A stretch of 64,000 nt of DNA, taken from assembly GCF_003019035.1 (NCBI RefSeq), contig NZ_CP027447.1. One strand, given 5' to 3'. Positions within the stretch are counted from its first letter, which is position 1, and each line of letters begins with the position of its first letter. Under the pieces are notes generated by a model, which searched no databases, was not told the origin of the DNA, and saw only the letters and a list, made by a program, of their open reading frames with translations. Below, in pieces: positions 47,785 to 53,833 of the stretch. Both the position numbers and the translations under genes were made by a program. This DNA comes from Escherichia coli. GTDB taxonomy: Bacteria; Pseudomonadota; Gammaproteobacteria; Enterobacterales; Enterobacteriaceae.

Positions 47785-49068
47785 TTAAAGACTTCTGGAA
47801 GGTTGCGCAGCTCTGACAACATGCGGTTGATCTTCCGCAGCGTCTTCCAGCGCACTTAAATCACGGTCTTTCACTTCTGGCATTTTCAGCGCAGAAATTA
47901 AACCAATCACTGAATATGCCATGATCATAATTGCGATCGGATACCAGGATTCCGTCATGGTGCAGAAAATACCCGCCAGGATAGGACCAAAACCGGAAGC
48001 GATAAGACCACCAATTTCTTTAGAAATGGCCATCCGGGTAAAGCGGTTTTTACAGCCGAACATTTCTGCCATGGTAATGTTTTCCAGAGCAAATAATCCA
48101 AGCACCGCACAGTTATGAATCACAATCAGTGCAACCATAATGGTGCTCGGGGCATAGCTTTTATCTACGATGATAGAAAGCATTGGCCATGCCAGCACAA
48201 TCGCAGAGGTATTCATAATAATATACGGGATCCGGCGACCAATTTTATCGGATAACCAACCAAGGAACGGAATGGTCATAAAGCCGAGAATCGAACTGAT
48301 CATCAATGCATCTGTTGGAATTGCTTTGTTAAACAATAACGTCTGCACTAAATAGCCTGCAAGGAAAGTCTGAATTAAACCTGAGTTACCAGCCTGACCA
48401 AAACGCAGCCCTGTTGCCAGCCAGAAGGATTTGCTCTGGAACATGCTACCAGCAGGTGCAGGTTTTGCTGTAGGTTGGTTGCTGTCGTTAACCTTCTCAA
48501 AGACCGGGCTTTCTTTCAGATTCATACGCAACCAGATAGCAAAGACCATCACGACAACGCTCGCCAGGAACGGTATACGCCATCCCCACGCCAACAGTTC
48601 CTCTTTACTGAGAATGAAGAACATAAAGGCCCAGATTGCCGTTGCGCTCAAGGTTCCGCAGTTAGTCCCCATAGCAACAAATGAGGAGATAATTCCGCGC
48701 TTACCTTTTGGCGCATATTCCGCCAGCATCGTACCGGCACCGGAAATTTCCGCGCCTGCCCCCAGCCCCTGAATAATACGCAGCGTCACCAGCAAAATTG
48801 GCGCAAACACACCAATTTGTGCATAGGTCGGCAGCACACCAATTAAGGTGGTACAGATCCCCATCATGGTGATGGTAATAAAGAGCACTTTTTTACGCCC
48901 TATTCTGTCGCCCATTTTGCCGAAAATAAATGCTCCGACAATACGTGCCACATAACCTGCACCATAGGTTCCCATTGCCAGAATTAACGCCATTGCCGTT
49001 GACGATTCAGGAAAAAATATTTCATGAAAAACTAACGCTGCGCCGAGCGAATATAACTGGAAATCCAT
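47785..49068 (-). pseudogene. ydfJ: MFS metabolite:H+ symporter YdfJ, 5'-truncated at the prophage junction
   Basis: The 427-aa ORF begins inside what aligns to TM1 of ProP/ShiA-family transporters (MDFQLYSLGAALVF… matches the …MEWFDFGVYGF… region), so the N-terminal tail and part of TM1 are missing; prophage genes start immediately upstream. Confidence 0.7.
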
Positions 49069-49853
49069 AATTCACAGGTGTTTTTTCCCATCCTGTGGTT
49101 TCCTTGGCGTTTTCTAGGTTTTTTCAGATAGTTGCATTTTTTAAAAAGCATCCTAAGTTCGATCTCAGTGTCTATCTGGGGCCTATTTCTGTCCCATATA
49201 TGCCCCAAAAAAACTCCCCAACAGATAAGTAGTTTTTTCATGGATTTATGCGTAAAATCAAGAACGGCTGGAAATCATTCAATACTCACACTATCGAAAA
49301 ATTTACCAGCCAACCGCAGCACGTTCTTGCATAAGGCGTGTCTGCGGTTTTTCAACTATTCAGATACATCACTCCCATCACATTCATTCCTCCGCATCAA
49401 AGGCATATAGGCTATATCACCTTGATATTTTTCTTTTTCAGATAAAAACTGTTATCTATGTATACTTTTAAACCCAATCCGTGTAGAGTCTCTGCATAAG
49501 ATAGTTTGCAGTTGCCGCTTCAGCTTGCGCCATAAACCGCCTGATTTTTGCTGCCACCTGTTAGCATTCCTGTATACCTGAAACGACAATGTTTATCTAC
49601 GAACTTTAAGAACACCCAAGATAAAAATTGTCAACTATATCATATATAACACATTACTAATTCGAGGCTATATGAACAGCATACTGATAATCACTTCTCT
49701 CCTTATCATATTCAGCATTTTTAGTCATGCCCTAATAAAATTAGGGATTGGCATATCCAATAACCCAGACAAAACCGATGTATAAGTCAACATATCCTGA
49801 ATCAGACATACAATATCGCAATGAAAATCAATAATATTTTAAGGAATATCTTC

Positions 49854-50087
49854 ATGAAATCAAAAGACACCCTAAAGTGGTTCCCTGCGCAGCTTCCTGA
49901 AGTAAGAATTATCCTAGGGGATGCTGTAGTGGAAGTAGCAAAACAGGGAAGACCTATCAATACCAGAACATTGCTTGATTACATTGAAGGAAACATAAAG
50001 AAAAAATCATGGCTGGATAACAAAGAATTATTACAAACAGCGATATCAGTTCTTAAAGACAACCAAAATTTAAATGGTAAAATGTAA
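49854..50087 (+). CDS. ydfK: Prophage small protein YdfK (77 aa from MKSKDTLKWF)
   Basis: Start chosen at the ATG with AAGGA Shine-Dalgarno (49854) rather than the track ATG at 49821; recognised as YdfK/YnaE family. Confidence 0.75.
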   Translation: MKSKDTLKWFPAQLPEVRIILGDAVVEVAKQGRPINTRTLLDYIEGNIKKKSWLDNKELLQTAISVLKDNQNLNGKM

Positions 50088-50403
50088 TATAATAAACTTA
50101 CTTTTTTATCATTTTTCCACTTTAACAACATTTTGCTCCACTTTTCCACGACCAAACAACTTGAAATCTGGTTAAAATAACACGCAACACTATTCTTCTT
50201 CCTTGAGTCCGCCCGGAACTCGAAAAACAAACCGAGTTAAAGCCATTTCTCACAAAACCGATTTTGGGTCTCACCAAAATTACGGGGTTGCATACGCATT
50301 CGTTTATTTTCGAACGTGTACATACAAATATGCACAAAAATAATCAAAATTATTTTCTGAGATGCATTATGATATGAACACCAATTTCGTATAGAGTCTC
50401 ACT

Positions 50404-50994
50404 ATGTCTCGAATTTTTGCTTACTGTCGGATATCAACGCTGGATCAGACCATCGAAAATCAACGCCGGGAAATCGAAAGTGCAGGTTTTAAAATCAAAC
50501 CTCAGCAAATAATCGAAGAACACATTAGCGGCTCAGCAGCAACCAGTGAGCGTCCTGGTTTTAACCGGTTGCTTGCTCGCCTGAAATGTGGTGATCAATT
50601 GATTGTGACAAAACTGGATCGCCTTGGTTGTAATGCAATGGATATCAGGAAAACAGTGGAACAACTGACCGAAACAGGTATCAGAGTGCATTGCTTAGCA
50701 TTGGGGGGCATTGACCTGACCAGTCCAACAGGAAAAATGATGATGCACGTAATTTCAGCAGTCGCTGAATTTGAACGAGACCTTTTACTTGAACGCACTC
50801 ATTCCGGGATAGTAAGAGCCCGCGGCGCAGGGAAACGTTTTGGTCGACCACCTGTGTTAAATGAAGAACAGAAACAGGTGGTATTCGAACGAATTAAGTC
50901 AGGTGTAAGTATAAGTGCCATTGCCCGGGAATTCAAAACCTCGCGGCAAACCATTTTAAGAGCCAAAGCAAAACTTCAGACACCTGATATATAA
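50404..50994 (+). CDS. pin: Serine recombinase, Pin/Gin/Hin-family DNA invertase (196 aa)
   Basis: N-terminal resolvase catalytic domain (…[10 protein letters not shown]…) and C-terminal HTH; convergent with the tail-fibre genes. Confidence 0.9.
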
Positions 50995-51091
50995 AAAATA
51001 ATCTCGGTGTGAGATGCTTTACGTCTTCCAAGCCCCCTTCCTTGCCGTAAATGGAAAGATACATCTAATTATAGAATTTATATGTTTTACC

Positions 51092-51208
51092 CTACGGCAG
51101 TGCTGGCCATTCAATATCCTGTGCAGTTGACGTATCAACACGGTTCAGCAATACCCGATACTTTTTCCATGCTTCCAGCAACGAGGTTTCTTCCTCCGTT
51201 GCATATAC
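51092..51208 (-). pseudogene. tfa: 3' remnant of a tail-fibre assembly gene (tfa), about 38 codons
   Basis: Frame encodes …[38 protein letters not shown], matching the conserved Tfa C-terminus; homology stops abruptly upstream. Confidence 0.6.
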
Positions 51209-51221
51209 AGCCCACCTTTTT

Positions 51222-51515
51222 TCACCCACGATTAACCAACAGCCAGACCAGCAGACACGCCACCACCGGCACAGCAAAATCCATCAGGCTTGCCACATCC
51301 CACGCGCGCGGATCAAAACCGCCCCACCACGGCATATTCATTCGCTTGCCATGCCCGAACATTTCAATCCAGCGATATTCTGCCTGGGTATGTTCACGCG
51401 CAATGAAGAACGTACAACCGGCTATCGCTCCGTAAGCCCAGTTTCCGGTAAAAAGACCAACCAGTATCTGCGCAGCCACAGCACAAAGTGCATGAAGTAA
51501 GGGGCTTATATCCAT
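51222..51515 (-). CDS. Hypothetical small membrane protein (97 aa, two predicted TM segments)
   Basis: Hydrophobic stretches [28 protein letters not shown] and [15 protein letters not shown]; no lipobox; lies where the tfa body is expected. Confidence 0.5.
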
Positions 51516-51527
51516 TATTTCCTCCTT

Positions 51528-51806
51528 TCAGCTCCATTCCCGAAGCGGTGTTTCCAGCTCCACGACATAATCAGAGAATACAGAAACATCAAACAAGTCA
51601 TCAAGAATGCGAATGTTGACAAAATAACCGTTATTCCGGATACAGACAGGTTCTCCCTCTTCAGTTACCCCTGTTTCTGTGTAGGTGAAACCAATTTCAT
51701 CGACTAACAGTTTATTCTGGAGGTCTTCATCTTCCTCCCAGTCAAGAGATGACAGGAAGGATTTAAACTCTCTGTTACCAGGAAATTTCAAAGTTAAATC
51801 TTTCAT
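51528..51806 (-). CDS. Hypothetical small acidic protein (92 aa); possible fibre chaperone or moron product
   Basis: ORF immediately downstream of, and 4-nt overlapping, stf; Asp/Glu-rich; no resemblance to Tfa that I can see. Confidence 0.5.
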   Translation of the reverse strand: MKDLTLKFPGNREFKSFLSSLDWEEDEDLQNKLLVDEIGFTYTETGVTEEGEPVCIRNNGYFVNIRILDDLFDVSVFSDYVVELETPLREWS

Positions 51807-53833
51807 ACTGCCTCCTTGATTTGCCTGTCATTTAATTCTTTAAACCAGACTCTGAAATTTCTGATGTGTCCAAACAAATGACGCGTTCCTGCTGCGGTCT
51901 GCCCACCAAACCGGTACGATGTTGCTGTAACTCCAAATATTTTACCATTAAGGTTTGTTGTATAATTACCATTGCATATTGCATTTACTGATAAATCAGA
52001 TTTAGCTCTCACACCCACAATGAACCTTTCTCCATCTGAGGAAATTTGTGGCTGAACCATTCCTACGTTGGCGCTTATCTTTCCTGTTGAAACAAACCCC
52101 AGCGATAAATAATTATCATCAATACTGTGCCCTCCAACATCAAATATCCTTGGCGCAACATTGGGCGGTGTACTCCAGTTCCTCCTTACTTCGCACAATA
52201 CTGTAAAAGGCCGTGTTGACAGGTTATTCGCCGAGGGGATAGTAACCACATCACTTGCGCGTGTTGTTGGCATTGTAGTTACAATAAATGACGATGCCGT
52301 ATTGCCCAGTTCAATTTGCGGCGTCGTCATGGTTAATGTTGAGTCATCATAGAATGGCTCATTACTTATTTTATTTGTCATATAAAAAGCACAGTTAACG
52401 GTATCAATGTCCGTATTAGCTGTATAAGTGGCCTCATAGTAGGTCCACTCGCCCTGTTGTTCAGCTTTGGCTGTTATAAGGGATGTATTACCGCTTACTG
52501 TTGCGATCCGGGTATCCAGATCAAGATAAGAGTCAGCAGAGAATGTATCTGTTCCACCAATAATAACTGAAACTCTTAACCTGCATCGTGCTTTAGCGCC
52601 TTTAACCCGGCACGAAAAAGTGAAACATTCACCACTTGCCAGCGGGAATCTGTCTGCTGCAACCACACCATGCACAGTATAGCCACCTGTTGTTCCCACT
52701 ATACTTTCCGTGGGTGTCACCGTGGCATAATTGAACCCCTGTTTATCAGTGCCAAATGTTTTATTCAGTGCGGAATGAACAGTCCATGAGTCTGGTTTAT
52801 TTGAGTTCCTCAGATAATTTGTCCTCTGTCCTTCAATCAATAAGCCATCGCGCTCAAATCGCGGTTCGTCAACTTCAGCAAGCTTGAGTTGGCCGGACTT
52901 ATTAATATACGTTGCTGTTGAAGCACGTTTAAACTTAACAATCTTGTCGCCTGGCATTGTTATTTCATCGTCACCAATAACAATCTTTTTATAAGATGGC
53001 GAAAAACCCGTAATCATATCCAGCGAATCGTTAAACGGTATCCACACATCAGGCAGCGGCGGCACTATATTCGCATAGGGCTCTGCAGTCACTTCCGCTG
53101 CGGCTTCTGCGCGGTCTGCCGCCTTTTCAGCTCGTGTCGCTGCCGACAGAGCCTCATCCTTTTTCTGCCCGGCCTTTGTTGCGTCTGCTGCGGCCTCCCG
53201 CGCTTTTGTGGTGGCGACTCCGGCATTTTCAGCGGCTGACTCTGCATTACGGCGGGAAGCCTCTTCACTGTCTGCGGAGGCTTCTTCTGACGCACGGGCA
53301 TTTGTCTCTGAACGTTCTGCCGCTGTTGCTGCGTTTTGTGCGGCTGTTTTTGAAGAAGCTGCCGCTTTCGCGCTGTTACCTGCATTCGTCTCTGATGTTT
53401 TCGCCGCGTTCCTGGACGATGCCGCTGCTGTTTCTGATTTCTTTGCTGCCGCTGCGCTCTGAGAGGCGGCTTCAGCGTTGCGTGCTGCTTCTTCCACCAT
53501 TGCCTCAAAACGACGCAATGCCTCCGGCATGACATCATCTTCCGTCATGGCACCGAGAAAATCATTCAGCGTACCAGGTCTGGAACCTTCATAGACGGTA
53601 ATGGTTCCGGCATGTGAAGGCGGAAAACCTTCAACCAGCAGGGTGACGCTGTACTGGCCATACTCGACATCCATGCTGTAACGCCCGGCTTCATCCGGAT
53701 TTTCAGAGGCTACCGTGTTCACCAGTACCGTGGTGCTGTTACGCTTTGCCTTCAGTTGAATAGTGCAGTTCTGTATTGGTTTTCCCGCACCATCTTTCAG
53801 CACACCTGAGATTTTTACTGCTGCCATATCCAC
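51803..53833 (-). CDS. stf: Side tail fibre protein Stf (676 aa) with lambda-type N-terminus and lectin-like C-terminal domain
   Basis: N-terminus MDMAAVKISGVLKDGAGKPIQNCTIQLKAKRN… matches lambda Stf; Ala-rich coiled segment; C-terminus …HLFGHIRNFRVWFKELNDRQIKEAV resembles the terminal strand of Laminin-G/concanavalin-like domains. Confidence 0.85.
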   Translation of the reverse strand: MDMAAVKISGVLKDGAGKPIQNCTIQLKAKRNSTTVLVNTVASENPDEAGRYSMDVEYGQYSVTLLVEGFPPSHAGTITVYEGSRPGTLNDFLGAMTEDDVMPEALRRFEAMVEEAARNAEAASQSAAAAKKSETAAASSRNAAKTSETNAGNSAKAAASSKTAAQNAATAAERSETNARASEEASADSEEASRRNAESAAENAGVATTKAREAAADATKAGQKKDEALSAATRAEKAADRAEAAAEVTAEPYANIVPPLPDVWIPFNDSLDMITGFSPSYKKIVIGDDEITMPGDKIVKFKRASTATYINKSGQLKLAEVDEPRFERDGLLIEGQRTNYLRNSNKPDSWTVHSALNKTFGTDKQGFNYATVTPTESIVGTTGGYTVHGVVAADRFPLASGECFTFSCRVKGAKARCRLRVSVIIGGTDTFSADSYLDLDTRIATVSGNTSLITAKAEQQGEWTYYEATYTANTDIDTVNCAFYMTNKISNEPFYDDSTLTMTTPQIELGNTASSFIVTTMPTTRASDVVTIPSANNLSTRPFTVLCEVRRNWSTPPNVAPRIFDVGGHSIDDNYLSLGFVSTGKISANVGMVQPQISSDGERFIVGVRAKSDLSVNAICNGNYTTNLNGKIFGVTATSYRFGGQTAAGTRHLFGHIRNFRVWFKELNDRQIKEAV

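What the first reader, a model, noticed from the sequence alone, without database searches (positions are those of the whole stretch)
49854..50087. ydfK sits on the pin side of the prophage end, mirroring the ynaE/pinR arrangement
A 77-aa YdfK/YnaE-family protein lies between the chromosomal junction and pin, preceded by a long AT-rich untranslated region. The track ATG at 49821 lacks a ribosome-binding site while the ATG at 49854 has AAGGA 9 nt upstream, so the shorter protein is the likely product. The recurrent pairing of this small gene with a Pin-family invertase at prophage ends is unexplained.
Basis: partly seen in the sequence, partly recalled or inferred. Interest (0 to 1): 0.2.

Follow-up and report, generated by a model that had tools for sequence, protein, structure and literature searches.

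The report
Known prophage cold-shock gene ydfK
This is ydfK, an already catalogued cold-induced small gene at the end of an E. coli prophage. Its neighbouring recombinase gene travels with it because both sit in one inherited 1.9-kb block, not because the two work together.

Summary
The ORF at 49854-50087 is real. It is the known Qin-prophage cold-shock gene ydfK, 100% identical to K-12 YdfK. The short start is right and already adopted: RefSeq lists 77 aa, and published top-down masses (8772.78 Da for YdfK, 8745.75 Da for YnaE) equal my computed 77-aa masses (the 88-aa form would be 10129.6 Da). ATGAAATC is invariant across the family, and the upstream ATG is absent in the Salmonella orthologue.

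The "untranslated" leader is not empty. It holds the 37-aa gene ynfT, a terminator-like hairpin and a candidate promoter.

The ydfK-pin pairing is explained. Rac and Qin share one ~1.9-kb block (hairpin, ynfT, ydfK, pin, tfa 3' end) at ~99% identity. In viable phages (Tritos, 2H10) it lies between int/attP and the tail-fibre genes, the position of lambda's b region. About 96% of ydfK-bearing E. coli genomes have ydfK next to pin. None of 43 Salmonella or more distant IMG/VR loci do, nor do plasmid or chromosomal homologues.

The parts
47785..49068 (-). ydfJ, the host MFS transporter gene truncated by prophage insertion (chromosomal flank)
   Evidence: RefSeq annotation of the near-identical strain GF131 and of K-12; ORF.
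49060..49075 (.). Chromosome/prophage junction (attR crossover region), overlapping the ydfJ start codon
   Evidence: The K-12 'cryptic prophage Qin' feature starts at the equivalent of window 49060. Phage Tritos becomes identical to the window from about 49061-49073 onward and carries its integrase gene upstream of that point.
49312..49354 (+). GC-rich hairpin followed by UUUUU (terminator-like). It is the first element shared by Qin, Rac and phage 2H10, and lies just downstream of int/attP in the phage map, the position of lambda's tI/sib.
   Evidence: Fold dG -20.7 kcal/mol, z -4.19, with 0 of 200 shuffles folding as well. Rac/Qin homology starts at about 49308 and 2H10 homology at about 49255. 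The weak Rfam CssrB hit covers only this hairpin. The simple terminator scan missed it. Function is inferred.
49437..49466 (+). Candidate sigma-70 promoter TTCAGA-18-TATACT. Its spacer is the palindrome AGATAAAAACTGTTATCT (49440-49457). Predicted TSS is about 49473, giving a ynfT-ydfK bicistronic mRNA.
   Evidence: Consensus scan, 9 of 12 matches. Published gSELEX RNA polymerase peaks lie 323-457 nt upstream of the old ATG at both ydfK and ynaE, which maps to window about 49364-49498 (PMC5493296; my coordinate conversion). Related half-sites at 49585-49598 and 49619-49632. No TSS data were available, so this is inferred.
49672..49785 (+). ynfT, a 37-aa hydrophobic small protein (YnaM/YnfT family)
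   Evidence: Pfam PF23676 at E 6.5e-28; NCBIfam NF041477; RefSeq annotation. The identical sORF is listed, and YnaM named among the detected small proteins, in PMC6001520. It sits upstream of ydfK in the 7 E. coli IMG/VR loci that include upstream flank, and in diverged form in Salmonella.
49821..49853 (+). 5' leader containing the formerly annotated but unused in-frame ATG. It overlaps a published predicted Fur-site cluster.
   Evidence: No Shine-Dalgarno sequence. The ATG is absent in the Salmonella orthologue. The 88-aa mass of 10129.6 Da does not fit the measured mass. A 17.1-bit Fur cluster is centred at old-ATG+8 (PMC2189734).
49841..49845 (+). Shine-Dalgarno sequence AAGGA of ydfK
   Evidence: Read from the sequence. 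Homologues have GAGGA, GAGA or AGGAG at the same place.
49854..50087 (+). ydfK, a 77-aa cold-shock-induced small protein (YdfK/YnaE family, PF27475, phrog_2718)
   Evidence: 100% identical to K-12 YdfK. Also. Intact mass in PMC5594050.
50317..50344 (+). pinQ promoter candidate TGTACA-16-AATAAT
   Evidence: Consensus scan. The same hexamers are listed for pinQ and pinR in the RpoD gSELEX study (PMC3946193).
50404..50994 (+). pinQ, a 196-aa small serine recombinase (Resolvase plus HTH_7 domains)
   Evidence: Pfam PF00239 at 2.5e-36 and PF02796 at 3.8e-11; phrog_125 DNA invertase; 38% identity to PinE; closest solved structure is Gin.
51092..51202 (-). 3' remnant of the tail-fibre assembly gene tfa. 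This is the end of the conserved block: the window diverges from K-12 Rac/Qin at 51202.
   Evidence: RefSeq marks it 'incomplete, missing N-terminus'. Alignment breakpoint. A 31-45-aa Tfa C-terminal match follows pin in IMG/VR loci.

Best explanation
The feature is ydfK of a Qin-type lambdoid prophage inserted in ydfJ. Translation starts at ATG 49854 and gives a 77-aa protein. This is shown by published intact-mass spectrometry, family-wide conservation and current RefSeq.

ydfK is the second gene of a small accessory unit, ynfT-ydfK. The unit is probably transcribed from a promoter near 49437-49466 (inferred). It lies in the att-proximal accessory region of the phage genome, between int/attP and the tail-fibre genes. 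This is the position of lambda's b region, where accessory genes expressed from the prophage ('morons') accumulate.

pinQ sits next to ydfK because it lies on the same mosaic block: hairpin terminator, ynfT, ydfK, pin, tfa 3' end, window about 49308-51202. Rac, Qin and live phages such as Tritos and 2H10 share this block at 98-100% identity. The pairing is therefore common descent and recombinational exchange of one module, not independent convergence or a functional partnership. This is shown for the family at large: every lineage below about 90% identity lacks pin.

For the protein itself, I infer that YdfK is a cold-induced small helical protein of the YmgB/AriR fold. It would act, like YmgB, by binding and modulating a host regulatory protein rather than as an enzyme, an RNA chaperone of the Csp type, or a recombination factor.
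For: Identity and start codon:
- Annotated as ydfK, with ynfT upstream and pinQ downstream, in thousands of RefSeq genomes.
- Computed monoisotopic masses of the 77-aa forms are 8772.80 Da (YdfK) and 8745.75 Da (YnaE). Measured values are 8772.78 and 8745.75 Da (PMC5594050).
- phrog_2718 matches 1-77 of 77 positions.
- The ATGAAATC start is invariant and the upstream ATG is lost in Salmonella.

Cold induction (literature): both proteins appear after refrigeration. YdfK is recovered at 16 C only (PMC10654059). It is co-regulated with csp genes (PMC7430671, PMC8824477, PMC12890032).

One shared block:
- The window/Qin/Rac alignment is about 99% identical from about 49308 to 51202, including intergenic DNA.
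- ynfT+ydfK occur in 2786 of 5426 complete E. coli genomes, and ydfK is contiguous with pin in 2681.

Position: phages Tritos and 2H10 have xis/int, then (ynfT) ydfK, then pin, then convergent tfa and stf.

No obligatory coupling to pin:
- Among 55 IMG/VR loci, 12 of 12 E. coli-type loci have pin, against 0 of 15 Salmonella-type and 0 of 28 distant loci.
- Other contexts without pin: a Salmonella myovirus, a Pantoea-type prophage end, Limnobaculum between the lysis and terminase genes, plasmids beside a GH94 gene, an E. coli prophage at smpB with dinI, and the Brenneria and Raoultella chromosomes.
- Pin alleles of 83-84% identity sit beside ydfK at 97-99% identity.

Fold:
- AlphaFold models have pLDDT 76.6 and 78.8.
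- Foldseek gives probability 1.00 and target-normalised TM 0.84 for 2oxl, and 0.21 or less for all other hits.
- hhalign gives probability 58%, E 1e-4, in the same register, against 0.6-1.3% for reversed-sequence controls.
- BLASTP of P0101 against AriR gives 39% identity over 28 aa, E 0.001.
- YmgB acts by direct binding to SpoT and on the Rcs relay (PMC10704370, PMC11709261).
Against: - No transcript-end data were available, so the promoter, the bicistronic ynfT-ydfK mRNA and the role of the hairpin are inferred. A second promoter-like site (TCAACA-16-TACAAT, 49787-49814) could give a short monocistronic ydfK mRNA.
- No terminator was found between ydfK and pinQ. Read-through co-transcription is therefore possible, and a regulatory link within E. 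coli cannot be excluded.
- The YmgB relationship rests on predicted models built from shallow alignments (17-18 sequences).
- The Pfam YmgB model does not match YdfK (best family member E 0.16). A profile search of PDB sequences does not find 2oxl. hhalign probability is only 55-58%.
- YmgB R74, which is needed for SpoT binding, appears to align with a conserved Gln in YdfK (my manual alignment). The target, if any, is therefore unlikely to be bound in the same way.
- No phenotype of ydfK or ynaE is known.
Confidence: 0.62

Rival explanations
1. YdfK and PinQ form a functional pair. YdfK would be an accessory or directionality factor, or a temperature-dependent regulator, of the serine recombinase, so that recombination near the tail-fibre genes responds to cold.
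For: - Adjacency is almost fixed in E. coli, about 96% of ydfK-bearing genomes, and holds in 12 of 12 E. coli-type viral contigs.
- The genes share a strand and are 316 bp apart, with no recognisable terminator between them.
- The substrate of PinQ is unknown.
Against: - The adjacency is confined to one clade of 97-100% identity and a single conserved DNA block.
- The 87-88% Salmonella orthologues and all more distant homologues lack any adjacent PinQ-type gene.
- pinQ has its own promoter-like site, which binds RNA polymerase in vitro.
- Pin alleles of 83-84% identity sit next to ydfK at 97-99% identity, so the two genes have separate histories.
- The predicted fold matches a signalling connector, not any known recombination accessory protein.
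Confidence: 0.06
2. YdfK is a small DNA-binding transcriptional regulator or nucleoid-associated modulator (Hha-like) that alters transcription of host or prophage genes in the cold.
For: - Several database records call it a 'predicted DNA-binding transcriptional regulator'.
- It is a small, basic, all-helical protein.
- From my own recollection, not checked here: YmgB was originally compared with Hha when its structure was solved (Lee et al. 2007, cited).
Against: - No helix-turn-helix or other DNA-binding Pfam or NCBIfam family matches.
- The database names are automatic predictions without experiments.
- The closest characterised relative, YmgB, is now shown to act by protein-protein contacts.
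Confidence: 0.15
3. YdfK is a cold-shock 'chaperone' acting on RNA or the RNA degradosome, as a functional analogue of Csp proteins.
For: - It is co-regulated with cspA, cspB, cspG and cspI at mRNA and protein level.
- It is pulled down with NudC at 16 C, together with CsdA (PMC10654059).
- Homologues neighbour cold-shock-domain genes in Salmonella and Brenneria.
Against: - There is no cold-shock (OB-fold) domain. The predicted fold is a three-helix bundle with no RNA-binding family match.
- The pull-down may simply reflect abundance at 16 C.
- The leader has no cspA-type thermosensor or cold box.
Confidence: 0.12

Closest known systems
E. coli K-12 ydfK (b1544, Qin) and ynaE (b1375, Rac), the YdfK/YnaE family (PF27475, phrog_2718)
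   Same: The window protein is 100% identical to K-12 YdfK and differs from YnaE only at K51T. Upstream ynfT/ynaM, downstream pinQ/pinR and the convergent tfa are the same.
   Different: In this strain the block joins a different tail-fibre module beyond 51202: a 676-aa fibre plus two small ORFs in place of tfaQ/stfQ. PinQ here has Arg3, as PinR does.
YmgB/AriR (PDB 2OXL; Pfam PF10798), with paralogues YcgZ and YmgA. These are small connector proteins of the low-temperature and blue-light-induced ycgZ-ymgABC operon.
   Same: - The predicted three-helix core superposes on 59-60 of the 62 residues of 2OXL at 1.5-1.6 A rmsd.
- A shared motif, L-G-x-A-V/L-x6-G-x3-N/S-x-K/R-x-L, aligns in the same register.
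- Both are expressed at low temperature.
- Both families occur as tandem small paralogues.
   Different: - Sequence similarity is below Pfam thresholds.
- YdfK has its own conserved N-terminal motif, TLxW(F/Y)PxQL.
- YdfK is carried on phages and plasmids, whereas ymgB is not annotated within a prophage in K-12.
- No Rcs or SpoT effect has been tested for YdfK.
Accessory genes ('morons') of the lambda b region, between the tail-fibre genes and attP
   Same: In viable phages the block lies between int/attP and the convergent tfa/stf genes. It is AT-rich, has its own promoter-like sites and is expressed from the prophage.
   Different: The content is unrelated to lambda's ea47, ea31 and ea59 genes (my own knowledge). 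No downstream terminator was found.
Din-family DNA invertases (Pin of e14, Gin, Cin, Hin) with their invertible tail-fibre segments
   Same: PinQ has the Resolvase and HTH_7 domains and the N-terminal catalytic Ser motif. Its closest solved structure is Gin. It lies next to tail-fibre genes.
   Different: PinQ is only 38% identical to PinE. It is convergent with tfa rather than following an inverted tfa'/stf' set as in e14. The e14-type crossover repeats (21 nt, 95% complementary) have no counterpart in the window, Rac, 2H10 or Tritos.

Membership tests
YdfK/YnaE family (PF27475 / phrog_2718) | Full-length sequence match to the family profile | tested here: met
   phrog_2718 at E 1.8e-47, positions 1-77 of 77. 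Precomputed PF27475 on all 90%-identity homologue clusters. 100% identity to K-12 YdfK.
YdfK/YnaE family (PF27475 / phrog_2718) | 77-aa product starting MKS..., with the conserved N-terminal motif TLxW(F/Y)PxQL | tested here: met
   Protein alignments; DNA alignment of start regions; published intact mass equals the computed 77-aa mass.
YdfK/YnaE family (PF27475 / phrog_2718) | Induction by cold | not testable with these tools
   Literature on the identical K-12 and BL21 protein only.
YmgB/AriR family (Pfam PF10798) | Match to the Pfam YmgB model at its gathering score (22.3 bits) | tested here: not met
   No hit for YdfK. The best family member, P0101, scores 12.3 bits, E 0.16. A profile search against PDB sequences does not retrieve 2oxl.
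YmgB/AriR family (Pfam PF10798) | Three-helix fold of PDB 2OXL | tested here: met
YmgB/AriR family (Pfam PF10798) | Profile-profile sequence homology | tested here: inconclusive
   hhalign probability 55-58%, E about 1e-4, over 30 columns. Reversed-sequence controls give 0.6-1.3%.
YmgB/AriR family (Pfam PF10798) | Acts as a connector on the Rcs phosphorelay or on SpoT | not testable with these tools
   Known for YmgB. Nothing is known for YdfK.
Din-type DNA invertase system (for the neighbour PinQ) | Small serine recombinase with Resolvase catalytic domain and C-terminal HTH | tested here: met
   PF00239 at 2.5e-36 and PF02796 at 3.8e-11.
Din-type DNA invertase system (for the neighbour PinQ) | Pair of inverted crossover sites flanking an invertible segment | tested here: not met
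   The e14 control gives a 21-nt pair at 95% complementarity. No comparable pair exists in the window, Rac, 2H10 or Tritos; the best are 70-80% complementary and chance-like.
Din-type DNA invertase system (for the neighbour PinQ) | Close sequence relationship to Pin, Gin, Cin and Hin | tested here: inconclusive
   38% identity to PinE. Gin scores E 1e-29, only moderately better than gamma-delta resolvase at 1e-22.
cspA-type cold-shock mRNA leader | Rfam cspA thermoregulator structure or cold-box motif in the 5' UTR | tested here: not met
   No Rfam hit at E up to 1. No cold-box match within 49400-49860 at up to 2 mismatches. Leader fold z -0.57.
Anti-phage defence systems (PADLOC) | Match to a known defence-protein model | tested here: not met
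   No hit for YdfK, YnfT or the two small ORFs. PinQ has only a marginal HTH match.

The most novel reading that the evidence does not exclude
The YdfK/YnaE family is a previously unrecognised branch of the YmgB/AriR/YcgZ connector-protein superfamily, carried on mobile elements. Temperate phages and plasmids of Enterobacterales would carry a cold-induced small protein that binds a host signalling protein (of the RcsC/RcsD or SpoT type) and so rewires envelope-stress, biofilm or stringent responses at low temperature. It would belong to a wider set of cold-related accessory genes on these elements (cspB/F/I, gnsB, ynfN, ynfQ/R, ynfU).
Probability: 0.3. Interest if true: 0.45.

Novelty: already known. 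Interest (0 to 1): 0.15.

Why it matters
As submitted, the finding adds little. The gene, its 77-aa start, its cold induction and its Rac twin are all on record, and the pairing with pin reduces to one shared mosaic block.

Two things are worth keeping:
1. A caution: adjacency that recurs within one species can be a single module copied by recombination. It should be tested in divergent homologues before a functional link is proposed.
2. A testable lead for a protein with no known function: YdfK is predicted to share the fold of YmgB/AriR, a small protein that controls the Rcs relay and SpoT by direct binding and is itself expressed at low temperature. If confirmed, about half of E. coli strains carry a phage-borne cold-specific regulator of host signalling.

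Tried and rejected
- cspA-like RNA thermosensor in the ydfK leader: no Rfam hit, no cold box, no excess structure. Rejected.
- Rfam CssrB sRNA at 49315-49452 on the minus strand (25 bits against a gathering score of 76, E 0.018). Only the terminal hairpin matches, and it reads better as a + strand terminator. Rejected as an sRNA.
- Invertible segment for PinQ: searched for inverted repeats in the window, Rac, 2H10 and Tritos, with e14 as a positive control. Nothing convincing was found.
- Direct repeat ACCCAATCCGTGTAGAGTCTC / ACCAATTTCGTATAGAGTCTC (49472 and 50380), considered as possible recombinase sites flanking ynfT-ydfK. My estimate is that about one such 13-mer pair with one mismatch is expected by chance in 2 kb. 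Not pursued.
- Intrinsic terminator after ydfK: none found.
- Defence-system reading: no PADLOC matches.
- Sequence-only link to solved structures: a profile search against PDB sequences found nothing relevant.
- One literature search was wasted because 'ynaM' matched 'ynamide' chemistry papers.
- Pfam scans of neighbours of distant homologues (a 137-aa Salmonella ORF and others) gave nothing.

Full report
**What is there**

The window is E. coli DNA. The segment 49000-51100 is 99.7-99.9% identical to thousands of RefSeq chromosomes. There it is annotated ydfJ (truncated), ynfT, ydfK, pinQ and a tail-fibre assembly gene. K-12 MG1655 has the same order at the left end of cryptic prophage Qin. 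It has the mirror image at the right end of Rac: stfR, tfaR, then pinR, ynaE and ynaM on the opposite strand, then the prophage end.

The ORF at 49854-50087 encodes a protein 100% identical to K-12 YdfK. It differs from YnaE at one residue, K51T.

**Start codon**

- AAGGA lies at 49841-49845, with an 8-nt spacer to ATG 49854.
- No Shine-Dalgarno sequence precedes ATG 49821.

The conclusion is right, but it is not new. RefSeq already lists 77 aa for both YdfK and YnaE.

Direct experimental evidence exists. A top-down mass-spectrometry study reported intact masses of 8772.78 Da (YdfK) and 8745.75 Da (YnaE) (PMC5594050). I computed 8772.80 and 8745.75 Da for the 77-aa forms with the initiator Met retained. 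The 88-aa form of YdfK would be 10129.57 Da.

Comparative evidence agrees.
- The PHROG family profile has 77 positions, matched 1-77.
- ATGAAATC is invariant in homologues down to 53% identity, each preceded by a Shine-Dalgarno-like GAGG or AGGA.
- The upstream ATG is absent in the Salmonella orthologue.

The stretch around 49821 was earlier predicted to be a Fur-site cluster (PMC2189734).

**The "long untranslated region"**

Between the junction and ydfK lie four features.
1. About 240 bp are specific to this attachment site. Phage Tritos carries its integrase gene immediately upstream and becomes identical to the window from about 49061-49073 onward. This places the junction at the ydfJ start codon, as in the K-12 annotation.
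2. A 13-bp-stem hairpin followed by UUUUU lies at 49312-49354 (dG -20.7 kcal/mol, z -4.2). It is the first element shared by Qin, Rac and phage 2H10. In the circular phage map it lies just downstream of int/attP on the int-sense strand. That is the position of lambda's tI/sib (my own knowledge). A terminator role is inferred, not shown.
3. A promoter-like site TTCAGA-18-TATACT lies at 49437-49466. Its spacer is the palindrome AGATAAAAACTGTTATCT, with related half-sites at 49585-49632. Published gSELEX peaks for several RNA polymerase holoenzymes lie 323-457 nt upstream of the old ATG at both ydfK and ynaE (PMC5493296). By my coordinate conversion this is window about 49364-49498, on top of this site.
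4. ynfT (49672-49785, 37 aa, hydrophobic) matches Pfam YnaM at E 6.5e-28 and NCBIfam NF041477. The identical sORF is listed, and YnaM is named among the detected small proteins, in PMC6001520.

The most economical reading is a ynfT-ydfK bicistronic mRNA. This is inferred. A second promoter-like site at 49787-49814 is not conserved in Salmonella.

The leader shows no cspA-type thermosensor, no cold box and no excess structure.

**Why ydfK sits beside pin**

Aligning the window with K-12 Qin and Rac shows about 99% identity from about 49308 to 51202. This covers the hairpin, ynfT, ydfK, both intergenic regions, pin and the last 110 nt of tfa. Rac is unrelated to the left of this block, and the window is unrelated to K-12 on its right. 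The two K-12 "pairings" are therefore two copies of one mosaic block, not independent events.

In viable phages the block lies between xis/int and the convergent tail-fibre genes (Tritos and 2H10). This is the att-proximal accessory region.

Within E. coli the block is very stable.
- ynfT+ydfK is present in 2786 of 5426 complete genomes.
- A query spanning ydfK through pin is at least 80% covered in 2681 of them.

Outside this clade the pairing disappears. I surveyed 55 IMG/VR loci.

| Group | Identity to YdfK | Loci | With adjacent pin | Typical context |
|---|---|---|---|---|
| E. coli type | 97-100% | 12 | 12 | pin 320-380 bp downstream, then convergent tfa |
| Salmonella type | 87-88% | 15 | 0 | ynaM-ydfK; a convergent tail-fibre assembly gene of a myovirus tail downstream in 14 of 15, from about 120 bp to about 1.1 kb away |
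| Distant | 51-65% | 28 | 0 | most have a divergent ynfU upstream |

Additional contexts also lack pin.
- Enterobacter and E. coli plasmids, next to a giant GH94 gene.
- A Limnobaculum prophage, between the lysis cassette and terminase.
- A Pantoea-type prophage end.
- An E. coli prophage at smpB with dinI.
- The Brenneria goodwinii chromosome, divergent from a cold-shock-domain gene and beside a lipid A acyltransferase-family gene.
- Tandem chromosomal paralogues in Raoultella.

Pin alleles of 83-84% identity sit next to ydfK at 97-99% identity, so the two genes have separable histories.

The recurrent feature is therefore position, in accessory-gene slots of temperate elements and especially between att and the tail-fibre genes. 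The recurrent companions are other small genes (ynaM, ynfU, dinI, csp).

**The neighbour PinQ**

PinQ is an intact small serine recombinase. It is only 38% identical to the true Pin of e14. It is closest to Gin among solved structures, but not far from gamma-delta resolvase.

Its layout, convergent with tfa, differs from the e14 layout. The e14 crossover repeats are easily found. No comparable inverted pair exists in the window, Rac, 2H10 or Tritos. Calling PinQ a "Pin-family invertase" is not established, and its substrate is unknown.

**What YdfK may do**

The family is very small. A profile search found 30 representatives among 1.84 billion proteins, all from Enterobacterales. It matches no Pfam model in the local copy, no NCBIfam model and no defence model.

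Structural evidence points to YmgB/AriR.
- An AlphaFold model (pLDDT 76.6) is a three-helix bundle behind a conserved N-terminal peptide.
- Foldseek agrees, with probability 1.00 for 2oxl and 0.21 or less for all other hits.

Sequence evidence is weaker but consistent.
- hhalign aligns YdfK 14-43 with AriR 27-56 at probability 58%, E 1e-4. Reversed-sequence controls give 0.6-1.3%.
- BLASTP of P0101 against AriR gives 39% identity over 28 residues in the same register.
- The Pfam YmgB model itself does not reach threshold, and a profile search of PDB sequences misses 2oxl.

I therefore treat this as a probable remote relationship, not as membership.

YmgB works by protein-protein contacts. [quoted passage not shown] Its operon is induced at low temperature (PMC3509220 abstract, and my own knowledge).

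YdfK is made in the cold. I therefore infer that it is a cold-induced, phage-borne binder of a host regulatory protein. I found no paper in the held library that links YdfK with YmgB. I put this mechanistic reading at roughly one in three.

**Verdict**

- The ORF, its start and the Rac/Qin symmetry are real and already known.
- The "untranslated" leader contains a gene.
- The pairing with pin is explained by one shared block in the phage's att-proximal accessory region, and it is not a property of the family.
- Interest is low. The only forward-looking item is the YmgB-like fold prediction.

Noticed in passing
window 51202-53833 (- strand): The window departs from K-12 Rac/Qin exactly inside tfa, at 51202. 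Beyond that point it carries a different tail-fibre module: a 97-aa ORF (phrog_1443), a 92-aa ORF (phrog_1361) and a 676-aa fibre with the phage_tail_N domain. The conserved 3' end of tfa looks like a recombination joint for swapping fibre modules.
   Followed up: partly
window 51126-51200 (- strand): Rfam IS009 matches at 72.6 bits, E 6.7e-16, over model positions 125-199. The hit was cut by the end of my search range and is below the gathering score of 117 for that reason. It lies in the conserved tfa 3' remnant.
   Followed up: no
window 49440-49457, 49585-49598, 49619-49632: There are three copies of an AGATAAA(A)A(C/T)TGT motif. One is a perfect-armed palindrome (AGATAA-N6-TTATCT) inside the spacer of the candidate ynfT-ydfK promoter. 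Two form a 14-nt inverted pair 20 nt apart upstream of ynfT. They look like operators for an unidentified regulator.
   Followed up: partly
window 50404-50994 (pinQ); literature: Several resequencing papers report recurrent 'mutations' K51T in YdfK and Q3R/R3Q in PinQ/PinR (PMC11297538, PMC12844343). K51T is the single residue that distinguishes YdfK from YnaE. The Q3/R3 reports run in opposite directions in PinQ and PinR, as expected of a paralogue difference. They are most likely read mis-mapping or gene conversion between Rac and Qin, not selected mutations. The window's PinQ has Arg3.
   Followed up: partly
L084-L086, 5334-6231 (Brenneria goodwinii chromosome): A 41%-identical YdfK homologue lies outside any prophage. 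It is divergently arranged with a cold-shock-domain gene and sits beside a lipid A acyltransferase-family gene. From my own knowledge, the E. coli member of that family, LpxP, is cold-induced. This hints at an ancestral cold-related chromosomal locus.
   Followed up: no
L011 5143-6234; L087 4557-5237: The family occurs as paired paralogues. In Salmonella a 70-aa copy and a 77-aa copy lie in one gene string with ynaM. In Raoultella there are tandem 77-aa and 78-aa copies. This resembles the tandem ycgZ-ymgA-ariR arrangement.
   Followed up: no
L052-L076 (IMG/VR), L004-L007, L015-L018: Homologues of 58-62% identity are nearly always preceded by a divergent ynfU (zinc-ribbon-like small protein). 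On plasmids they abut a 2860-aa GH94 (cyclic beta-1,2-glucan synthase-like) gene, and gnsB-like and DUF892 genes lie nearby.
   Followed up: no
window 50088-50403: The 316-bp ydfK-pinQ spacer has no recognisable terminator. A small hairpin at about 50203-50222 is followed by A-rich rather than U-rich sequence, so read-through from ydfK into pinQ is possible.
   Followed up: partly
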